Assembly: GCA_944363855.1 (NCBI GenBank)
Contig: CALVVM010000080.1
Location: 1-42,904, forward strand
Direction: 5' to 3'
DNA from: an uncultured Bacilli bacterium
Lineage (GTDB): Bacteria; Bacillota_I; Bacilli_A; RF39; UBA660
Length of the DNA: 42,904 nt
Numbering within the stretch: the first letter of the stretch is position 1; each line of letters begins with the position of its first letter. The translations under genes were made by a program, and so were the position numbers. Under the pieces are notes generated by a model. It was given only the letters and a program-made list of their open reading frames with translations, was not told the origin of the DNA and did no database searches. Of this stretch, positions 135 to 25,789 are shown in pieces.

Positions 135-1676
135 TTATTTCTCTATTTTGAAAATTACTTGATATAGATTTGATAAATCTATTTCTTCTACATCTATTTT
201 AAATCCTAATTGTTCTATCTTACTTGAACATTCTCTTATTGCATTTATTACTTCTTTAAAGTCTACTGCTGATGGCACTGTTCCATATTGTGGCATAACT
301 GGATCATATTGTTTAGAATAATCTGTAACAATAATTGGTTCAGGCATTTTAAATTCTGGAACCACAGGATCTACCGGTGATACTGTTGCTTCTGACGCAT
401 TTAAATTATTATCTCCAAAACTAAATAAATTTTCTGACTGTTGAGTCATTTCTATAGGTTGATTAACTACTGGTGACTCTATGATTGGAGCAGTAACAGG
501 AATTTCTGTCACTACTGGTGTAACTGGTTGGGCCTCTGGCATACTTGGAGCCTTTTCTGGCATTGGTGCTGATACTACATTTCCATTTGCATCAAATTGT
601 ATTCCGCCCATTGTTGGCATCTCTGGTACCACTTGTGTTGGTGCTACTATTGGTGTTTCCATTACTGGTGTAACTGGTTGGGCCTCTGGCATACTTGGAG
701 CCTTTTCTGGCATTGGTACTGATACTACATTTCCATTTGCGTCAAATTGTATTCCACCCATTGTTGGCATCTCTGGTACCACTGGTGTTGGTGCTACTAT
801 TGGTGTTTCCGTTACTGGTGTAACCGGTGTTGTATTAGCTCCACCAAATATATCAAAACTTGGAGCAACTGATTGTTGCACAGGTTCTGGAACTGTATTT
901 ATAACTGGTTGAGGAGATTGAGTATTTGATGGACCAAATATATCAAACCCTGTTGATGGTTGTGGATTTGTCTCAACAGCTGGCATACCAAACATATTAT
1001 TATTCATATCATTTTCCCCTTTTCTTATTATCTTTTGATTATCGTCGTCATCATTATCTTCTACTGATAGATTTTTTATTTTTTCAATTTCTTCATCTGT
1101 TCTTCTAACAGTTAATCTATCACTTATTATTCTATCTAACATTTCATTTTGTTGTTTTGAATTAGTTAATTTTAATAGTGATCTTGCATGTCGCTCAGAT
1201 ATTTTATTTTCAAGAAGTGCTTCTTGGACTTCATCAGAAAGATTTAATAATCTTATCTTATTGGCAACTGCAGATTGACTCTTACCTAATTTAGAAGCTA
1301 GATTTTCTTGAGTTATATATCCCATATCAAGGATTTTTTTATAACTTAATGCTTCTTCTATAGGAGTTAAATTTTTTCTTTGTATATTTTCTATAAGCGC
1401 TATTTCTGCACTATCTTTATCATTTAAGTTTTTAACAATTACTGGCACTGTATCTTTTCCAGCAAGTACACTTGCTTTATATCTTCTTTCTCCAGCAATT
1501 ATTTCGTATTTATCTCCGATAGTTCTTACTACTAAAGGTTGGATAACACCATGTTCTTTTATTGAATCAGATAATTCTAATATTTCTTCTTCATCAAATT
1601 GTATTCTTGGTTGAAATCTATTAGGTAATATTTCATTGATATCTACTTCTATTACCCTAGATGAATTATCATACAT
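135..1676 (-). CDS. noc: Nucleoid occlusion protein Noc (ParB family) with a long Pro/Val/Thr/Glu-rich linker
   Basis: ParB N-domain (PNRFQPR, IAGERR, IENIQR); HTH GKSQSAVANKIRLL..SERHAR has Noc-type rather than Spo0J-type residues; C-terminus resembles the B. subtilis Noc CTD; follows rsmG; NBS-like sites occur in the window. Confidence 0.8.
   Translation of the reverse strand: MYDNSSRVIEVDINEILPNRFQPRIQFDEEEILELSDSIKEHGVIQPLVVRTIGDKYEIIAGERRYKASVLAGKDTVPVIVKNLNDKDSAEIALIENIQRKNLTPIEEALSYKKILDMGYITQENLASKLGKSQSAVANKIRLLNLSDEVQEALLENKISERHARSLLKLTNSKQQNEMLDRIISDRLTVRRTDEEIEKIKNLSVEDNDDDDNQKIIRKGENDMNNNMFGMPAVETNPQPSTGFDIFGPSNTQSPQPVINTVPEPVQQSVAPSFDIFGGANTTPVTPVTETPIVAPTPVVPEMPTMGGIQFDANGNVVSVPMPEKAPSMPEAQPVTPVMETPIVAPTQVVPEMPTMGGIQFDANGNVVSAPMPEKAPSMPEAQPVTPVVTEIPVTAPIIESPVVNQPIEMTQQSENLFSFGDNNLNASEATVSPVDPVVPEFKMPEPIIVTDYSKQYDPVMPQYGTVPSAVDFKEVINAIRECSSKIEQLGFKIDVEEIDLSNLYQVIFKIEK
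511..828. repeat. 150 bp (50 aa) tandem repeat, 2 copies plus a partial third, in the noc linker
   Basis: 511-660 vs 661-810 differ at 5 positions; unit PVTPVTETPIVAPTPVVPEMPTMGGIQFDANGNVVSVPMPEKAPSMPEAQ. Confidence 0.95.
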
Positions 1677-9024: not shown

Positions 9025-9040
9025 TATTTCCCAGGAATTA
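9025..9040. promoter_or_regulatory. NBS-like site at the edge of oriC
   Basis: TATTTCCCAGGAATTA, 14/16 match to the NBS consensus. Confidence 0.5.
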
Positions 9041-9394: not shown

Positions 9395-10750
9395 ATGGAT
9401 TTAAATAACATTTGGAATTCATTTCTAGAGAAAATAAAAGTTCAAATATCAGATATTGCTTTTGAAACTTGGTTCTCAGAAACTAAATTAATAAGTTTAA
9501 ATAATAAAACAGCTACTGTTTTAGTTCCTTATCATATACATAAAAAGAATTTGAGTGAAAACTATAGTGATATAATAGAAGAAGTTTTTACTGAAATTAC
9601 TGGTAGTAACTTTAAATTCAATTATGTTATTGAAGAAGAAGTAGAAAATAACTTAACTGAAGATAATCAAATAATAGGTGTTCCTAATAATAATGATTTA
9701 TATGAATCTAATCTAGATCCTAAATATTCATTTGAAAATTTTATGATCGGACCTAGTAATAAGTTTGCAGCTACTAGTGCTTTAGCGGTTGCTGAACAAC
9801 CTGGTAAAATGTATAATCCTTTATTTATATATGGATCAAGTGGGTTAGGGAAAACACACTTAATGCACTCAATAGGTAACTATATAATAAAGAATAGTAA
9901 TAAAAAAGTTTTATATATAACTTGTGATAACTTTGTATCTGATTTTGTTGACATCTGTAGAAAGAATGCAGGTTCTAACAATATGGATGCTATTAAACAA
10001 TTTAAAAATAAATATAGAGATATAGATGTATTAATAATTGATGATATCCACAATTTAGTAGGAGCTACTAGTGCTCAACAAGAGTTTTTCAACACATTTA
10101 ATGAACTATATAATAATGAAAAGCAAATAATTATATCATCAGATAGATCACCAGACGATATTAAAAAATTAGAAGAAAGATTAAAAACAAGATTCAACTG
10201 GGGACTTCAAGTTAATATATTACCTCCAGATTTTAAACTTAGAATGTCTATATTAAATAAGAAAATAGAAAATAATGAACTATCTGGAGTTGTTCCTGAA
10301 GATGTTAAAGAATATATTGCTAGTAATTGTGTAGGGGATGTAAGAAAACTAGAAGGCGCAATAACTCGTGTATTTGCTTACGCAACTATGATGAATGGTT
10401 CAGATATTACGATGGATTTAACAGTTGAAGCTTTAAAAGATTATTTTGTTAAAACTATTGTGTCTAAAAATAAAATGGATCAAGTAGTTCAAATAGTTTG
10501 TGATCATTATAATTTAACTAATGAAGAATTATTAAGTAAAAAAAGAAGTAATGATATAGCAATCCCAAGAATGATAGCTATGTATATATGTCGTGTATAT
10601 CTAGATGAAAATCTTACTAAAATAGGTATTCAATTTGGTGGTAAAAACCATACAACAGTTATGCACGCAGTTGATAAAATTAAAAAAGAAATAATAAAAG
10701 ATGATCATTTGAATGGAGAAATCCAAAAAATGATAAATGAAATTAGATAA
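9395..10750 (+). CDS. dnaA: Chromosomal replication initiator DnaA
   Basis: YNPLFIYGSSGLGKTHL, IIDDI, QQEFFNTFN, RLKTRF, FGGKNHTTVMHA. Confidence 0.99.
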   Translation: MDLNNIWNSFLEKIKVQISDIAFETWFSETKLISLNNKTATVLVPYHIHKKNLSENYSDIIEEVFTEITGSNFKFNYVIEEEVENNLTEDNQIIGVPNNNDLYESNLDPKYSFENFMIGPSNKFAATSALAVAEQPGKMYNPLFIYGSSGLGKTHLMHSIGNYIIKNSNKKVLYITCDNFVSDFVDICRKNAGSNNMDAIKQFKNKYRDIDVLIIDDIHNLVGATSAQQEFFNTFNELYNNEKQIIISSDRSPDDIKKLEERLKTRFNWGLQVNILPPDFKLRMSILNKKIENNELSGVVPEDVKEYIASNCVGDVRKLEGAITRVFAYATMMNGSDITMDLTVEALKDYFVKTIVSKNKMDQVVQIVCDHYNLTNEELLSKKRSNDIAIPRMIAMYICRVYLDENLTKIGIQFGGKNHTTVMHAVDKIKKEIIKDDHLNGEIQKMINEIR

Positions 10751-12140: not shown

Positions 12141-12599
12141 ATGGAAGATTATGAAATAAGCTCAGCAACTTTAGCTATAGTGCCTTTGGGTGAAGAAGTA
12201 TCTAAAGTTTATGAAGAAGAAGATGAATATATTATTCAAAAATCTGCTAATAGTATTATTAAAGATAATTGTGAGTTTTATGGCAGTTCATATGAAGGTA
12301 GATGTATTGGTACTAAAACTTTAACTGGTATTAAAACAAAATTTCCAATAATAATAGAAGAAAGTAGAAATATTATATTTTTTCCAACTTCATCAACTAG
12401 AACTAAACAAAGTACTTGGATAGCACTAAATAAAATTAAAGAAATATCAAAAAAAGAACATCAAAATAGTGAAATTTTATTTAAAAATCAAGATACTTTA
12501 GATTTAGATATTTCAGTTAACTCATTAGAAAATCAAATTGTTAGAGCTACTATGTTGAAATCTAAATTATATGAAAGAAAATTAGAAGAAAAAAACTAA
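12141..12599 (+). CDS. comK: Competence transcription factor ComK family protein
   Basis: YEISSATLAIVP, CEFYGSSYEGR, PIII..IIFFPT, WI, ISVNSLENQIVR align with B. subtilis ComK. Confidence 0.88.
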   Translation: MEDYEISSATLAIVPLGEEVSKVYEEEDEYIIQKSANSIIKDNCEFYGSSYEGRCIGTKTLTGIKTKFPIIIEESRNIIFFPTSSTRTKQSTWIALNKIKEISKKEHQNSEILFKNQDTLDLDISVNSLENQIVRATMLKSKLYERKLEEKN

Positions 12600-15767: not shown

Positions 15768-18311
15768 ATGGAAAATGAAGAAAAAGTAACAGAAGAATTA
15801 GAAGAAAAACAAGAATTTGGTGGAACATTCCATGAAAGAGATAGTTTATCTGAAAATAACATAGTAAATGAAGTAAGAACTTCTTTCCTTGATTACTCAA
15901 TGAGTGTTATTACATCTCGTGCTATTCCTGATTTAAGAGATGGTTTAAAGCCTGTTCATAGAAGAATTTTATGGTCTATGTATGAAGAAGGTAATACACC
16001 GGATAAACCACATAAAAAATCTGCAACAACAGTTGGATACGTTATGGGACATTACCACCCACATGGAGATTCATCTATTTATGATGCAATGGTTCGTTTA
16101 GCTCAAGATTTTAACCAAAGATATATGTTAGTTGATGGACATGGTAACTTTGGTAATATTGAAGGTGATGGCGCTGCTGCTTACCGTTATACAGAAGCAA
16201 GACTTGCTAAAATATCATTAGAACTTTTAAGGGATATTAAAAAAGATACTGTTGATATGGATTGGAACTTCGATGTAACAAGTAAAGAACCAAAAGTTTT
16301 ACCATCAAGATTTCCTAATGTTTTAGTTAATGGATCAATGGGTATTGCAGTTGGTATGGCAACTAACATTCCACCTCATAATTTAGGTGAAGTAATAGAT
16401 GGTTGTATTGCATATATAGATAATCCTGATATAGATACTAATGGATTAATGCAATATATTAAAGGGCCAGATTTTCCAACAGGTGGTATAATATTAGGAA
16501 ATTCAGGTATTAAAAAAGCATATGAAACAGGTCGTGGATCAATTACTATTAGAAGTAGAGCTATGATAGAAGAAGAAGGAAATCATAGTAATATAGTAAT
16601 TACTGAAGTTCCATATGGAGTAAATACTTTAGAATTAAAAAACAAAGTTGCAGAACTTGTTCATAATAAAGTAATAGAAGGAATAGCTGACTATCATACA
16701 GATTTAAAAGAAGGAGTAAAAATAACAATAACTTTAAAAAGAGATGCTAATCCACAAGTAGTATTAAACAATTTATATAAACATACCAATTTTCAAGTAA
16801 ATTATGGAATTATTTTATTAGTTATTGATGATGGAACACCAAGAACTTTAGGTCTTAAAGATATAATATCTAAATATATTGAACATCAAAAAGAAGTAAT
16901 TATAAGAAGAACTAAATTTGATTTAGAAAAAGCAGAAAATAGAGTTCATATATTAGAAGGTTATAAAATTGCTCAAGATAATATAGATGAAGTTATTAAG
17001 ATAATTAAATCTGCTAAAAGTGATATAGAAGCAAAAGAAAAATTAATGTCTAGGTTTGGATTAACTGAAATTCAAACAGATGCTATATTAGAATTAAAAT
17101 TAAGACGTTTAACAGGTTTAGAAAGAGAAAAAATAGAAGCAGAACTTGCTGAATTATTGAAACTTATTGCTGAATATAAAGAAATTTTAGCAGATATGAA
17201 TAAAGTATTAGAAATTATTAAAAATGAAATGCTTGAAATAAAAGAAAAATATTCAGATGAAAGAAGAACTTCAATAGATATGACAGCAATTGATTATATT
17301 GATGATGAATCATTGATTCCTGTTGAAGATTTAGTTATAACTTTAACTAATAAAGGATATATTAAACGTGTTGAAAGTGATACTTATAAAGCTCAAAATA
17401 GGGGTGGTGTAGGTATTAAAGGTATGACAACAAATGAAGAAGATTTTGTTGAAAATATTCTTTCAATGACAACACATGATTACATTATGTTCTTTACTAA
17501 TAAAGGTAAAGTATATAGAATGAAAGGTTATGAAGTTCCTTTATTCAATAGACAATCAAAAGGATTACCAATAATTAACTTACTACCATTAGAAAAAGAT
17601 GAAAAAGTTAATGTTATGTTAAAAGCAACTCCAAAAGATGTTCCAGCATATGTTGTACTTTGTACACAAAAAGGAATAATTAAGAGAACTAAAATAACAG
17701 AATTTGAAAATATTAGAACTAATGGTAAGATAGCTATTACATTAAAAGATGATGATGAACTTATTTCAGCTAAAATTACTGAAGGAAATTCAGAAATTTT
17801 AATTGCTTCTTCAAATGGTAGATTAATTAGATTTAATGAAAATGAAGTAAGAATCATGGGAAGAAGTGCATCAGGCGTTAGAGGTATTGATGTAGGAGAT
17901 GGAATAGCTGTTGGTATGGAAATTTCTTCAGAAAAAGATGATGTATTGGTTGTAACTGAAAAAGGTTATGGTAAAAAGACAAATATAGATCAGTATAGAA
18001 TGACACATAGAGGAAGTAAAGGTGTTAAAGCACTTAATGTTACAGAAAAGAATGGAAATATAGTTTCATTTAAAATAGTAAATGGGGAAGAAGATTTAAT
18101 GATTATTACAGATAGTGGAATAATTATTAGATTACCGCTTTCTCAAGTATCATCTACTGGCCGTGTTGCTCAAGGTGTTAAATTAATTAACTTAAAAGAT
18201 AATCAAAAAGTAAGTACAATAGCAATTATTGAACATAATGAAGAAGAATCAGAAGTAGAGGAACAACAAACAATAGAACAAGAAGTAGAAAATAATAATA
18301 GTTCTGAATAA
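15768..18311 (+). CDS. gyrA: DNA gyrase subunit A
   Basis: DGLKPVHRR, HPHGDSSIYD, YRYTEA, GyrA-box QNRGGVG. Confidence 0.98.
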   Translation: MENEEKVTEELEEKQEFGGTFHERDSLSENNIVNEVRTSFLDYSMSVITSRAIPDLRDGLKPVHRRILWSMYEEGNTPDKPHKKSATTVGYVMGHYHPHGDSSIYDAMVRLAQDFNQRYMLVDGHGNFGNIEGDGAAAYRYTEARLAKISLELLRDIKKDTVDMDWNFDVTSKEPKVLPSRFPNVLVNGSMGIAVGMATNIPPHNLGEVIDGCIAYIDNPDIDTNGLMQYIKGPDFPTGGIILGNSGIKKAYETGRGSITIRSRAMIEEEGNHSNIVITEVPYGVNTLELKNKVAELVHNKVIEGIADYHTDLKEGVKITITLKRDANPQVVLNNLYKHTNFQVNYGIILLVIDDGTPRTLGLKDIISKYIEHQKEVIIRRTKFDLEKAENRVHILEGYKIAQDNIDEVIKIIKSAKSDIEAKEKLMSRFGLTEIQTDAILELKLRRLTGLEREKIEAELAELLKLIAEYKEILADMNKVLEIIKNEMLEIKEKYSDERRTSIDMTAIDYIDDESLIPVEDLVITLTNKGYIKRVESDTYKAQNRGGVGIKGMTTNEEDFVENILSMTTHDYIMFFTNKGKVYRMKGYEVPLFNRQSKGLPIINLLPLEKDEKVNVMLKATPKDVPAYVVLCTQKGIIKRTKITEFENIRTNGKIAITLKDDDELISAKITEGNSEILIASSNGRLIRFNENEVRIMGRSASGVRGIDVGDGIAVGMEISSEKDDVLVVTEKGYGKKTNIDQYRMTHRGSKGVKALNVTEKNGNIVSFKIVNGEEDLMIITDSGIIIRLPLSQVSSTGRVAQGVKLINLKDNQKVSTIAIIEHNEEESEVEEQQTIEQEVENNNSSE

Positions 18312-18315
18312 TATT

Positions 18316-18348
18316 AAAGGAATGTTTCACGTGAAACATTCCTTTTTT
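18316..18348 (+). terminator. gyrA terminator built on a parS palindrome
   Basis: AAAGGAATGTTTCACGTGAAACATTCCTTT perfect 30 bp palindrome continuing into a T-run, 4 nt after the stop. Confidence 0.7.
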
Positions 18349-18511
18349 ATATTTTATTTAATAAATAAAAAAAATTATAACTATCAATGTTTCACGTGAA
18401 ACATTGATATAAACTAAATAAATTGTTTTAAAATATATTAAATTTATATGTTTCACGTGAAACATATAAATAAAGTATTGATATTTTTTTTATTTATAAT
18501 ATATTATTAAT

Positions 18512-18581
18512 GCACAACATTTATATTCAAATCAGGTCAGAGTTGGAAGACAGCAGCCTTAAGAATCTCTAAATGTGTGTG
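18512..18581 (+). ncRNA. ffs: Small SRP (4.5S) RNA, copy 1
   Basis: Domain IV GG-UCAGA-GUU-GGAA-GAC-AGCAG-CC; outer stem GCACAACAUUUA/UAAAUGUGUGUG; TTGATA upstream and a T-run downstream; near tadA-dnaX like B. subtilis scr. Confidence 0.85.
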
Positions 18582-18675
18582 TTTTTTTTTGTTTTTGTAA
18601 TAAAACACTAATGTTTCACGTGAAACATATAAATAAAGTATTGATATTTTTTTTTATTTATAATATATTATTAAT

Positions 18676-18746
18676 GCACAACATTTATATTTGAATCAGG
18701 TCAGAGTTGGAAGACAGCAGCCTTAAGAATCTCTAAATGTGTGTGC
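18676..18746 (+). ncRNA. ffs: Small SRP (4.5S) RNA, copy 2
   Basis: Identical domain IV; closing stem GCACA/UGUGC fully paired. Confidence 0.85.
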
Positions 18747-18966
18747 TTTTTTTTATTTTTTGTAATAAAACACTAATGTTTCACGTGAAACATTAGTGAA
18801 AAAACAACTAAATATAATACAAAAAAACAAAAATATTAAAATTTATATAATTTTATAATATAATATAGATAGAAAATATCAATGTTTCACGTGAAACATT
18901 GATGAAATAAACACTAAAAAATATAATTATTAATAAATAAATTAAAATAATTTTATTTAAATAAAT

Positions 18967-18982
18967 TATTTCCTGGGAAATA
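18967..18982. promoter_or_regulatory. Noc-binding site
   Basis: TATTTCCTGGGAAATA, 15/16 match to the NBS consensus, 7 bp from parS7. Confidence 0.7.
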
Positions 18983-19017
18983 AAAAATATGTTTCACGTG
19001 AAACATTGGAGGTTAAA

Positions 19018-19371
19018 ATGAATGAAAATTATATGAATCTAGCAATTCAACAAGCTAAAAAAGCTTATAAATACGAGGAAGTACCGGTAGGTGCTATAAT
19101 AGTTAAAAATAATAAAATAATTGCTATATCAAAAGCATGTAAAAAAATAAAAAATTGGAGATTAGATGATTGTGAAATTTATGTAACAATGGAACCATGT
19201 ATGATGTGTTGTGGCGCAATAGAACAATCAAGAATAAAAAAAATAATATATGGTGTTAAAAATGAAAATTATGGGTCTACTGAATTGTTAAAAAATGTAG
19301 AAATTATTTCCCAAGTTTGTGAAAAAGAATGTAGAGAATTAGTTCGATCATTCTTTAAAAAAAGAAGATAA
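19018..19371 (+). pseudogene. tadA: tRNA adenosine(34) deaminase TadA with an in-frame deletion of the HAE motif (probably inactive)
   Basis: EVPVGAIIV and TMEPCMMCCGAI are present, but IIA joins directly to ISKAC with no N..HAE segment; 117 aa from ATG 19018. Confidence 0.75.
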
Positions 19372-24940: not shown

Positions 24941-25789
24941 ATGTCACAAAAAAGTTATGATAATAGTCCAACTTTATATCTTATTCCAACTCCAATAGGA
25001 AATATGGAAGATATAACAATAAGAGCGATTAATACATTAAAAATGGTTGATGTAGTTTTCTGTGAAGATACTAGAGTAACTGGACAATTATTAAAATATT
25101 TAGATATAAGTAAAAAGTTAATATCTAGTCATAATTATAACGAATCAGGTAATAAAGAAAAGTTGTTAGAGTATTTAAGTAGTGGAAGTAATGTAGGGTT
25201 AGTTAGTGATAGAGGAACACCTATAATAAGTGATCCAGGATATGAACTTGCTAAAGTAGCTATAGAAGAAGGTTATAATGTGGTAAGTTTACCAGGAGCT
25301 ACTGCTTTAATACCAGCTCTAACTTCATCAGGTATTAGTCCTATGCCATTTTACTATTATGGATTTTTGAATAGTAAAGATAGTGCTAGAAGGAAAGAGT
25401 TAGAATTTTTAAAAAATATAGATGCTACACTAATACTTTATGAAGCTCCACATCGCATAAATAAAACATTAAAAGATTTGGAAAATATTTTGGGAAATAA
25501 TCGTAAAATATGTATTTCCCGGGAAATAACTAAAAAGTATGAAGAAATATATAGGGGAACAATAGGTGAACTAATAGAGCAAAAAAACGAATATAAAGGA
25601 GAACTTGTAGTAGTAGTAGAAGGTAATAAGGAAACTACTGAATACAAAAATTTAACAGTTGAAGAACATGTTAAACTATATATAGAAGATGGTAAAAGTT
25701 CAATGGATGCTATTAAGATAGTTGCTAAAGAACGTGGTATGAAAAAAAGTGAAGTATACGATATTTACCACAATATAGAAAAGAAGTGA
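24941..25789 (+). CDS. rsmI: 16S rRNA C1402 2'-O-methyltransferase RsmI
   Basis: PTPIGNMEDIT.RA, EDTR, SDPG, YEAPHR, REITK. Confidence 0.96.
   Translation: MSQKSYDNSPTLYLIPTPIGNMEDITIRAINTLKMVDVVFCEDTRVTGQLLKYLDISKKLISSHNYNESGNKEKLLEYLSSGSNVGLVSDRGTPIISDPGYELAKVAIEEGYNVVSLPGATALIPALTSSGISPMPFYYYGFLNSKDSARRKELEFLKNIDATLILYEAPHRINKTLKDLENILGNNRKICISREITKKYEEIYRGTIGELIEQKNEYKGELVVVVEGNKETTEYKNLTVEEHVKLYIEDGKSSMDAIKIVAKERGMKKSEVYDIYHNIEKK
25513..25528. promoter_or_regulatory. Perfect Noc-binding site inside rsmI
   Basis: TATTTCCCGGGAAATA, 16/16. Confidence 0.8.

What the first reader, a model, noticed from the sequence alone, without database searches (positions are those of the whole stretch)
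18442..18798. SRP RNA gene duplicated by recombination between flanking parS sites, leaving a chimeric parS at the junction
Seen: the unit parS-promoter-ffs-T-tract is repeated. parS4 (18612) has the left arm of parS5 (CACTAA) and the right arm of parS3 (TATAAAT), so it lacks the extended symmetry of its neighbours. That is the footprint expected from unequal exchange between parS3 and parS5. The copies differ by 4 transitions and 2 indels, none in domain IV. Known: ffs is normally single copy. Inference: parS repeats act as an accordion that co-amplifies centromere sites and an essential RNA gene.
Basis: partly seen in the sequence, partly recalled or inferred. Interest (0 to 1): 0.72.

Follow-up and report, generated by a model that had tools for sequence, protein, structure and literature searches.

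The report
SRP RNA gene duplicated between centromere sites
In an uncultured, AT-rich gut bacterium with a small genome, the gene for the signal-recognition-particle RNA lies inside a dense row of chromosome-segregation (parS) sites and has been copied once in tandem by mispairing between two of those sites; this shows neatly how such rows grow but is otherwise an ordinary kind of duplication.

Summary
Rfam finds two full-length small SRP RNA genes, at 18506-18591 and 18670-18755. They lie in a 164-nt head-to-tail repeat (18448-18793, 96% identical). Each unit holds a perfect 16-nt parS, a sigma-70-like promoter, ffs and a T tract.

The middle parS (18612) carries the left arm of the downstream site and the right arm of the upstream site. 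This is the junction expected from misaligned exchange or replication slippage within the shared 18-nt core.

All seven parS sites of the 1.09-Mb genome lie in this 695-nt gyrA-tadA spacer, 8 kb from dnaA. A canonical ParB is encoded elsewhere in the genome.

Of 27 species of the genus, only this one has two ffs hits. Single-copy relatives carry the two parental parS arms, so the duplication is probably derived. Other parS-bounded spacer duplications occur in relatives, which partly supports the "accordion" idea.

Read evidence is indirect. Contigs built independently from two runs show the break pattern of a tandem repeat, and one run has a short contig across the junction.

Copy A has two unique changes at positions that are otherwise invariant in the genus.

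Interest is moderate.

The parts
15768..18311 (+). gyrA, left border of the parS spacer
   Evidence: NCBIfam NF004043 at 1142.7 bits
18316..18345 (.). parS1 (core 18323-18338) inside a 30-nt perfect palindrome followed by a T run; terminator-like hairpin just after the gyrA stop
   Evidence: -11.1 kcal/mol as DNA
18382..18409 (.). parS2 (core 18388-18403) in a 28-nt palindrome
18442..18471 (.). parS3 (core 18449-18464) in a 30-nt palindrome; left parent of the duplication; arms TTTATA / TATAAAT
   Evidence: the same arms occur in congener G010 (L028)
18448..18611 (+). repeat unit 1 (parS + promoter + ffs copy A + T tract)
   Evidence: TRF period 164; alignment
18478..18505 (+). promoter-like site of copy A: TTGATA, 16 nt, TATATT
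   Evidence: consensus scan only
18506..18591 (+). ffs copy A (small SRP RNA). It has unique G-to-A (18529) and C-to-T (18582) changes at positions that are invariant in the 20 other sequences aligned
   Evidence: Rfam 54.1 bits; alignment columns 29 and 82
18612..18627 (.). parS4, the junction site: left arm CACTAA as in parS5, right arm TATAAAT as in parS3; palindrome extends only 1 nt
   Evidence: I15, I7; -4.3 kcal/mol
18612..18776 (+). repeat unit 2 (parS4 + promoter + ffs copy B + T tract)
18641..18669 (+). promoter-like site of copy B: TTGATA, 17 nt, TATATT
   Evidence: consensus scan only
18670..18755 (+). ffs copy B (small SRP RNA). Its only derived RNA change is a C-to-U that turns a C-G pair into U.G, a state that three other species also have
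   Evidence: Rfam 57.5 bits; column 28/63 pair types
18771..18798 (.). parS5 (core 18777-18792) in a 28-nt palindrome; right parent of the duplication; arms CACTAA / TTAGTG
   Evidence: the same arms occur in sister species G011 (L024)
18878..18903 (.). parS6 (core 18883-18898) in a 26-nt palindrome
18990..19005 (.). parS7, lying directly against the GGAGG ribosome-binding site of tadA
19006..19371 (+). tadA-like gene, right border of the spacer; lacks 20 residues including the HAE motif

Best explanation
The 695-nt gyrA-tadA spacer, 8 kb from dnaA, is the chromosome's centromere array. It holds seven perfect 16-nt parS sites, the only ones in the genome, and these are presumably loaded by the canonical ParB encoded on contig C51.

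The small SRP RNA gene, with its own promoter and T-tract terminator, lies inside this array between two parS sites. The same holds in every congener examined.

In this lineage the two flanking sites, parS3 and parS5, share an identical 18-nt core (A + 16-mer + T). They mispaired during replication or sister-chromatid exchange. The result is a head-to-tail duplication of the 164-nt unit parS-promoter-ffs-terminator and one extra parS (parS4) with hybrid arms.

Because the repeat is only 18 nt long and 164 nt apart, RecA-independent slipped misalignment (microhomology-mediated tandem duplication) is more likely than classical unequal crossing-over. It may be helped by hairpin formation at the long palindromes.

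Both copies keep every conserved SRP RNA motif and a promoter. Copy B looks like the working orthologue. Copy A carries most of the derived changes and may be under relaxed constraint.

What is shown: the repeat, the hybrid junction, the single-copy state in relatives, and the presence of the parental arms in relatives. What is inferred: ParB binding, the molecular mechanism, and expression of both copies.
For: - Two Rfam hits above the threshold. Ffh and an FtsY-like gene are present.
- A 164-nt tandem repeat at 96% identity.
- Homology starts at 18448/18611 and ends at 18628/18793, which are exactly the edges of the 18-nt core.
- parS4 has the left arm of parS5 and the right arm of parS3.
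- All 7 parS sites of the genome (1 mismatch allowed) lie at 18323-19005; the reversed-pattern control gave 0.
- ParA and ParB lie on contig C51. ParB has the ParB_N and HTH_ParB domains and a GERRVRA motif.
- In the genus, G000 has 2 ffs hits, 25 species have 1 and 1 has 0.
- In a class-wide sample, 3 of 150 scored genomes have 2 hits and only G000 has them in tandem.
- 18 of the 19 congeneric loci have parS on both sides of ffs; the 19th is cut by a contig end.
- The arms of parS3 occur in G010 and the arms of parS5 in G011.
- For duplicated parS-bounded spacers in other congeners, 6 of 48 same-size spacer pairs are at or above the 99.9th percentile of shuffles. Of these, 5 exceed every shuffle, and one of the 5 is the ffs unit itself. 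A 47-nt unit occurs in 2.4 copies in G009.
- In the assembly only one other tandem repeat has a period of 100 nt or more at 95% identity or more, and it lies inside a gene. Tandem stitching is therefore not a general feature of this assembly.
- For Logan contigs (k=31, as I recall it), runs X1 and X2 each give a separate 181/182-nt unit contig ending exactly at 18611 and 18793, and a downstream contig starting at 18764. That is a 30-nt overlap at the predicted branch node. X1 also has a 42-nt contig matching 18603-18640 with no differences, which covers both arms of parS4.
Against: - No raw reads were available. X1 is labelled a synthetic metagenome and may derive from this assembly. X2 may be the source sample.
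- In X1 and X2 only one unit contig was laid, and it carries mostly copy-A letters. The copy-B letters at 18692/18693 were not seen in those contigs (table 3). Contigs drop variants, so this is compatible with two copies but does not show them.
- Two exact-pattern scans of JGI metagenome contigs found nothing, so there is no independent assembly with the junction.
- The genome is a MAG of 86 contigs.
- The copies differ by 4 substitutions in 147 aligned positions. That is about as much as either differs from sister species G011 (5 and 6). The event is therefore not recent, or the copies come from diverged lineages.
- Promoters and terminators are consensus matches only: 14 promoter-like sites were found against 9.8 expected by chance in this AT-rich stretch.
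Confidence: 0.75

Rival explanations
1. Assembly artefact: two strain alleles of a single ffs locus were placed in tandem by the assembler, and no cell carries two copies.
For: - The genome is a MAG of 86 contigs.
- The copies differ at 6 sites, about as much as between sister species.
- Only one allele set is visible in the Logan contigs of X1 and X2.
- No other public assembly holds the junction.
Against: - A tandem stitch needs words that span the hybrid junction. The shared core is only 18 nt, so any de Bruijn assembly with k of 21 or more needs real reads that contain both arms (my reasoning from the sequence).
- Contigs built independently in X1 and X2 break exactly at the two repeat borders, as in a loop. 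X1 holds the 42-nt loop-back piece.
- Long-period, near-identical tandem repeats are otherwise almost absent from the assembly.
Confidence: 0.12
2. The direction is reversed or the event is older. The two-copy state predates the split from the sister species, and relatives such as G011 returned to one copy by deletion between parS sites or short repeats.
For: - Divergence between the copies (4 substitutions) is close to the divergence from G011 (5 and 6).
- G011 lacks parS3. Its sequence upstream of the promoter reads as if a segment ending at the ATATAAAT arm had been deleted.
- Deletion between close repeats is easy.
Against: - 25 of the 26 other species have one copy, and none shows a hybrid parS next to ffs.
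- No derived state is shared between G011 and only one of the two copies.
- G010 and most congeners keep the single-copy arrangement parS3-ffs.
Confidence: 0.1
3. The duplication is real and is kept by selection, for a higher SRP RNA dose or for an added centromere site, rather than being a neutral passenger event.
For: - Both copies keep a promoter-like site and all conserved motifs after enough time for 6 differences to accumulate.
- The number of parS sites varies from 0 to 12 in the genus, so site number is free to vary.
Against: - Copy A has two unique changes at positions that are invariant in 20 other sequences. It also has a 16-nt instead of a 17-nt promoter spacer, which looks more like relaxed constraint.
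- The duplication occurs in only 1 of 27 species.
- There are no expression data.
Confidence: 0.15

Closest known systems
Chromosomal parS clusters near oriC (ParABS centromeres; e.g. the four-site cluster of Pseudomonas aeruginosa and the 20-23 sites of Streptomyces coelicolor, as summarised in the review PMC7333895, of which I read passages)
   Same: The sites are perfect matches to the 16-nt consensus palindrome. They are origin-proximal (dnaA lies 8 kb away). There are multiple sites. A ParA and a ParB with a CTP-motif N-domain and an HTH domain are encoded in the genome.
   Different: All seven sites are packed into 695 nt of one intergenic spacer. About half of the sites across the genus lie in longer perfect palindromes with site-specific arms. 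An essential RNA gene lies inside the array. The review lists the cause of parS clustering and of variation in site number as open questions.
Microhomology- or short-repeat-mediated tandem duplication (slipped misalignment). Source: preprint 10.64898/2026.02.28.708716, of which I saw only the search listing and the start of the abstract. RecA-independent slippage between close short repeats is recalled from the literature.
   Same: A single-copy segment flanked by two short direct repeats becomes repeat-unit-repeat-unit-repeat, and the middle repeat has hybrid flanks.
   Different: Here the microhomology is a functional protein-binding site that is also a palindrome. Each event therefore adds a centromere site, and the passenger is ffs.
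Iterated plasmid centromeres such as sopC of the F plasmid
   Same: The array is dense, with short palindromic ParB-type sites at spacings of tens of nucleotides, and it evidently grows by tandem duplication. Congener G009 has a 47-nt unit in 2.4 copies.
   Different: This array is chromosomal. Its spacers are mostly unrelated to each other and irregular in length (61-165 nt). It is interrupted by a transcribed gene.
Bacterial small SRP RNA (Rfam RF00169; 4.5S-type)
   Same: Both copies match the model end to end above the threshold. They have the GGAA tetraloop and the conserved GGUCAG...AGCAGCC core.
   Different: There are two tandem copies. 142 of 150 genomes sampled from the class have one hit, 5 have none and 3 have two.

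Membership tests
Bacterial small SRP RNA (RF00169) | Covariance-model score above Rfam's gathering score, over the full length | tested here: met
   57.5 and 54.1 bits against a threshold of 40; model positions 1-97 of 97 for both copies
Bacterial small SRP RNA (RF00169) | Conserved hairpin with a GNRA-type tetraloop and the symmetric and asymmetric loop motifs, supported by covariation | tested here: met
   In the consensus fold of 21 genus sequences, 23 pairs are predicted and 4 of them show compensatory changes. The core GGTCAG...GGAA...CAGCAGCC is identical in both copies
Bacterial small SRP RNA (RF00169) | Partner protein Ffh and receptor FtsY are encoded | tested here: met
   TIGR00959 at 611.7 bits on contig C20; a second, FtsY-like match on C83
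Bacterial small SRP RNA (RF00169) | Both copies are transcribed and bind Ffh | not testable with these tools
   Only consensus promoter matches are available.
parS centromere site of a chromosomal ParABS system | 16-nt palindrome matching TGTTNCACGTGAAACA | tested here: met
   7 perfect sites; 0 in 100 shuffles
parS centromere site of a chromosomal ParABS system | Origin-proximal position | tested here: met
   dnaA lies at 9395-10750 and dnaN, recF, gyrB and gyrA lie directly upstream. oriC itself was not mapped
parS centromere site of a chromosomal ParABS system | Cognate ParB (N-terminal CTP-binding domain, HTH, dimerisation domain) and ParA in the genome | tested here: met
   Contig C51 encodes a ParA of 261 aa and a ParB of 294 aa. 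The ParB has ParB_N, HTH_ParB, a weak ParB_C match and the motif GERRVRA
parS centromere site of a chromosomal ParABS system | ParB binds and loads at the sites | not testable with these tools
   This needs ChIP-seq or in vitro binding
Short-repeat-mediated tandem duplication | Head-to-tail copies whose homology begins and ends in the same short direct repeat, with a hybrid repeat in the middle | tested here: met
Short-repeat-mediated tandem duplication | The single-copy ancestral arrangement, flanked by the two parental repeats, exists in relatives | tested here: met
   25 of the 26 other species have one hit and one has none. The arms of parS3 occur in G010 and the arms of parS5 in G011. No single relative examined has both arms together
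Short-repeat-mediated tandem duplication | The junction is present in sequencing reads, with unit coverage twice that of the flanks | tested here: inconclusive
   Only contigs were available. X1 gives a 42-nt junction piece, with unit depth 15.8 against flank depth 8.72. X2 gives unit depth 8.31 against flank depths 6.6-7.8. The break points are as expected for a loop

The most novel reading that the evidence does not exclude
In this family of small-genome gut Bacilli the centromere is a self-remodelling array. parS sites set in long palindromes act as hot spots for slippage or recombination, and these events continually add and remove site-plus-spacer modules. The SRP RNA gene is not a chance resident but a working part of the array. 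For example, its strong transcription could set a boundary for sliding ParB clamps, or ParB could tune its promoter, which starts 13 nt after a parS. On this reading centromere strength and SRP RNA dose are mechanically coupled and can change together in one step.
Probability: 0.12. Interest if true: 0.65.

Novelty: new variant of a known kind. Interest (0 to 1): 0.4.

Why it matters
A review of the ParABS field lists two open questions: why the number of parS sites varies, and what drives their clustering (PMC7333895, section 5, passages read). This locus gives a sequence-level footprint of one answer. Neighbouring parS sites serve as the short repeats for tandem duplication, so each event creates a new site next to the old ones.

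The same genus shows several further parS-bounded spacer duplications, and site counts range from 0 to 12. The locus also shows that an essential, normally single-copy RNA gene can be carried along. That yields a natural pair of ffs alleles in which early divergence after duplication can be studied.

The limits are clear. There is one metagenome-assembled genome, no raw reads, and no evidence that the duplication has any phenotypic effect.

Tried and rejected
- Exact scans of JGI metagenome contigs for the 34-nt junction and for a 36-nt promoter/5'-ffs stretch both gave 0 hits. No independent assembly was found. This says nothing about absence.
- Read laying gave only Logan contigs. Copy-B-specific letters were not seen in X1 or X2, and nothing was laid on 18427-18597 in X1. 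Contigs drop variants and the tool masks 18565-18602, so I draw no conclusion from these gaps. Runs X3 and X4 (about 0.55 of the words) could not be read for copy number.
- I tested whether parS next to ffs is widespread, using the pattern parS-N60-90-CAGGTCAG in the species-representative genomes. I passed 20 of the 80 to Rfam. 8 had a true ffs, and all 8 were gut Bacilli-type MAGs by their record titles. The 3 Streptomyces loci tested and the other 9 had no Rfam match. I therefore reject a general parS-ffs link outside this group of Bacilli.
- TRF on L014 found no tandem repeat that matches its regular 62/165/62 parS spacing.
- In the class sample, G120's two ffs hits have the same score, one of them starts at base 2 of its contig, and I did not check them further.
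- Literature searches for parS together with ffs, SRP RNA or tandem duplication returned nothing relevant.
- Two congeneric loci (L023, L027) did not match my ffs regular expression. They were left out of the palindrome and spacer counts.

Full report
**What is there.**
The window is contig C80 of a metagenome-assembled genome of 1,088,370 bases in 86 contigs, 92% complete and 25.4% G+C.

The gene order is that of an origin region of Bacillota: rnpA, yidC, jag, mnmE, mnmG, rsmG and a noc-like gene on the minus strand, then dnaA, dnaN, a ComK-family gene, recF, gyrB and gyrA. After a 695-nt spacer come a tadA-like gene, dnaX, ybaB and recR.

The spacer holds seven perfect copies of TGTTTCACGTGAAACA, at 18323, 18388, 18449, 18612, 18777, 18883 and 18990. 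None was found in 100 shuffles. They are the only matches in the whole assembly when one mismatch is allowed.

Rfam finds two full-length small SRP RNA genes, at 18506-18591 (54.1 bits) and 18670-18755 (57.5 bits). These are the only Rfam matches in the window and the only ffs matches in the genome.

**The repeat.**
Tandem Repeats Finder reports 18448-18793 with period 164, 2.1 copies and 96% matches. Each unit consists of:
- a parS site;
- 13 nt of spacer;
- a TTGATA ... TATATT promoter-like site, with a 16-nt spacer in copy A and 17 nt in copy B;
- ffs;
- a T tract;
- the sequence GTAATAAAACACTAA.

Homology starts at the A before the parS core (18448/18611) and ends at the T after it (18628/18793). 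As a result parS4 has the left arm of parS5 (CACTAA) and the right arm of parS3 (TATAAAT...).

Five of the seven sites lie in perfect palindromes of 26-30 nt. parS4 and parS7 do not. The predicted DNA hairpins are -8.4 to -11.1 kcal/mol for the five, against -4.3 and -4.0 for the two.

**Relatives.**
- In the 27 species representatives of the genus, G000 has two ffs matches, 25 have one and one (G003) has none.
- In a sample of 150 scored genomes of the class, three have two matches. G000 is the only tandem case. G120's two hits have the same score, one starts at base 2 of its contig, and I did not check them further. G129 is discussed below.
- In 18 of the 19 congeneric loci fetched, ffs has parS sites on both sides. 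The 19th is cut by a contig end.
- Genome-wide parS counts in the genus run from 0 to 12. In the rows that were listed, nearly all sites lie in one array around ffs.
- The upstream site of G010 has the same arms as parS3. The downstream site of G011, the closest relative over this unit, has the same arms as parS5.

The parental sites therefore exist in single-copy genomes, and parS4 is a derived hybrid. G011 itself lacks parS3.

**Which copy changed.**
I aligned 21 genus sequences.
- Copy A has A at column 29, where the other 20 have G. It has U at column 82, where the other 20 have C, which turns a G-C pair into G.U.
- Copy B has U.G at the pair 28/63, where the three closest species have C-G. 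The U.G state also occurs in three other species.
- The ancestral dinucleotide was probably CG. It is now CA in copy A and TG in copy B.
- The T8 promoter spacer and the G in the T tract are also peculiar to copy A.

Copy A thus carries about four of the six derived states. All motifs of the SRP core are identical in both copies.

My use of the term "domain IV" is recalled and comes from no call.

The copies differ by 4 substitutions in 147 aligned positions. They differ from G011 by 5 and 6. The event is therefore not recent, or the copies evolve faster than orthologues do.

**Is it real.**
No raw reads could be laid. Only Logan contigs of four runs were available.

In X1 (labelled a synthetic metagenome) and X2 (a chicken gut metagenome) the unit appears as a separate contig of 182 or 181 nt. 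It spans exactly 18611-18793. The next contig starts at 18764, which is a 30-nt overlap. This is the pattern expected when a 30-mer has two continuations, that is, when the graph loops.

X1 also holds a 42-nt contig that matches 18603-18640 without a difference and so covers both arms of parS4.

Unit depth against flank depth is 15.8 against 8.72 in X1, and 8.31 against 6.6-7.8 in X2.

Against the reading:
- The single unit contig in both runs carries copy-A letters at 18692/18693, and copy-B letters were not seen. Contigs drop variants.
- X1 may have been derived from this assembly, and X2 may be the source sample.

From the sequence itself, the shared core is 18 nt. An assembler that uses words of 21 nt or more cannot join the two alleles in tandem without reads that contain the hybrid junction.

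The assembly has only one other long-period, near-identical tandem repeat, and it lies inside the noc-like gene.

I put the chance that the duplication is real at about 0.85.

**Mechanism.**
The anatomy is that of a tandem duplication between two short direct repeats. With 18 nt of identity 164 nt apart, slipped misalignment during replication is more plausible than RecA-dependent unequal crossing-over. That judgement rests on recalled literature on close short repeats, and on the abstract of preprint 10.64898/2026.02.28.708716 seen in the listing. The sequence cannot separate the two mechanisms.

Long palindromes could stall replication and favour slippage. This is inference.

**The accordion idea.**
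I compared 48 same-size pairs of inter-parS spacers within 18 genomes.
- Six pairs reach 0.80 identity or more, which is the 99.9th percentile of 960 shuffles.
- Five of them exceed every shuffle.
- The six pairs come from five genomes: G005 (1.00), G009 (0.97 and 0.90), G000 (0.96, the ffs unit), G022 (0.88) and G013 (0.84).
- G009 has a 47-nt parS-plus-spacer unit in 2.4 tandem copies.

Arrays in this genus do therefore grow by duplication of modules bounded by parS. That ffs is co-amplified is shown only here.

A second possible case is G129, in another genus of the family. A module of parS, 49-nt spacer and parS occurs three times there, and twice it is followed by promoter and ffs. One of those ffs copies is cut by a contig end, and the two contigs may represent strains.

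**Known and new.**
parS clusters near the origin, tandem duplication between short repeats, and the SRP RNA are all well known. Four literature searches found no paper that links parS with ffs or with tandem duplication. The ParABS review asks what drives parS clustering and the variation in site number.

I file the finding as a new variant of known kinds, of moderate interest.

Noticed in passing
window 19006-19371: The tadA-like gene encodes 121 aa and lacks a 20-residue block (KAYNKKEK...KHAEIIA in relatives) that holds the HAE zinc/catalytic motif. All 15 congeners translated have the block. The gap lies between two IIA-coding repeats. No other tadA passes the cut-off in the genome, yet a tRNA-Arg(ACG) gene is present. 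An X4 contig carries about 50 extra letters at about 19120, so full-length alleles seem to exist in related strains.
   Followed up: partly
window 18967-18982, 25513-25528, 1824-1839, 9025-9040: These are Noc-binding-site-like palindromes (TATTTCCCGGGAAATA; the consensus is recalled). The genome has four matches at up to 2 mismatches, all on this origin contig, with one between parS6 and parS7. Relatives have a perfect copy in the same array (L014, L165).
   Followed up: partly
window 135-1676 (-): A ParB/Noc-like protein of 513 aa has the ParB_N and HTH_ParB domains in its first 200 residues and an extension of about 300 residues with no family match. The extension contains a 150-nt tandem repeat (513-828, 2.1 copies, 96%).
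   Followed up: partly
genus-wide; window parS1, 2, 3, 5, 6: 51 of the 107 parS sites in 18 genomes lie in palindromes that extend at least 5 nt beyond the 16-mer, against 3.9% when the flanks are re-paired among sites. The arms differ from site to site, and orthologous sites show paired changes (CACTAA/TTAGTG against CACCAA/TTGGTA). The reason is unknown. Options are hairpin terminators, cruciforms, or a mutational process that perfects palindromes.
   Followed up: partly
window 18990-19019; L030, L021, L034: The last parS lies directly against the GGAGG ribosome-binding site of tadA in this genome and in several congeners. The tadA-dnaX leader would therefore contain a parS hairpin.
   Followed up: no
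L164 (G129:C15:1-2200) and L165 (G129:C23:58000-59277): Another genus of the family has a triplicated parS-spacer-parS module and perhaps two ffs copies (97.7% over 216 nt). One copy is cut by a contig end.
   Followed up: partly
window 12141-12599: A ComK-family gene (Pfam PF06338, E 1.3e-43) lies between dnaN and recF.
   Followed up: no
G011 contig C30: The sister species has six further perfect parS sites spread over 16 kb of another contig, unlike the other congeners. This may be contamination, a second replicon or a different layout.
   Followed up: no
L039-L118: 38 of the 80 listed loci with parS followed 60-90 nt later by CAGGTCAG are from Streptomyces, at similar spacings. The 3 tested had no Rfam match, so this is a conserved non-ffs neighbour of a parS site or a chance pattern.
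   Followed up: no
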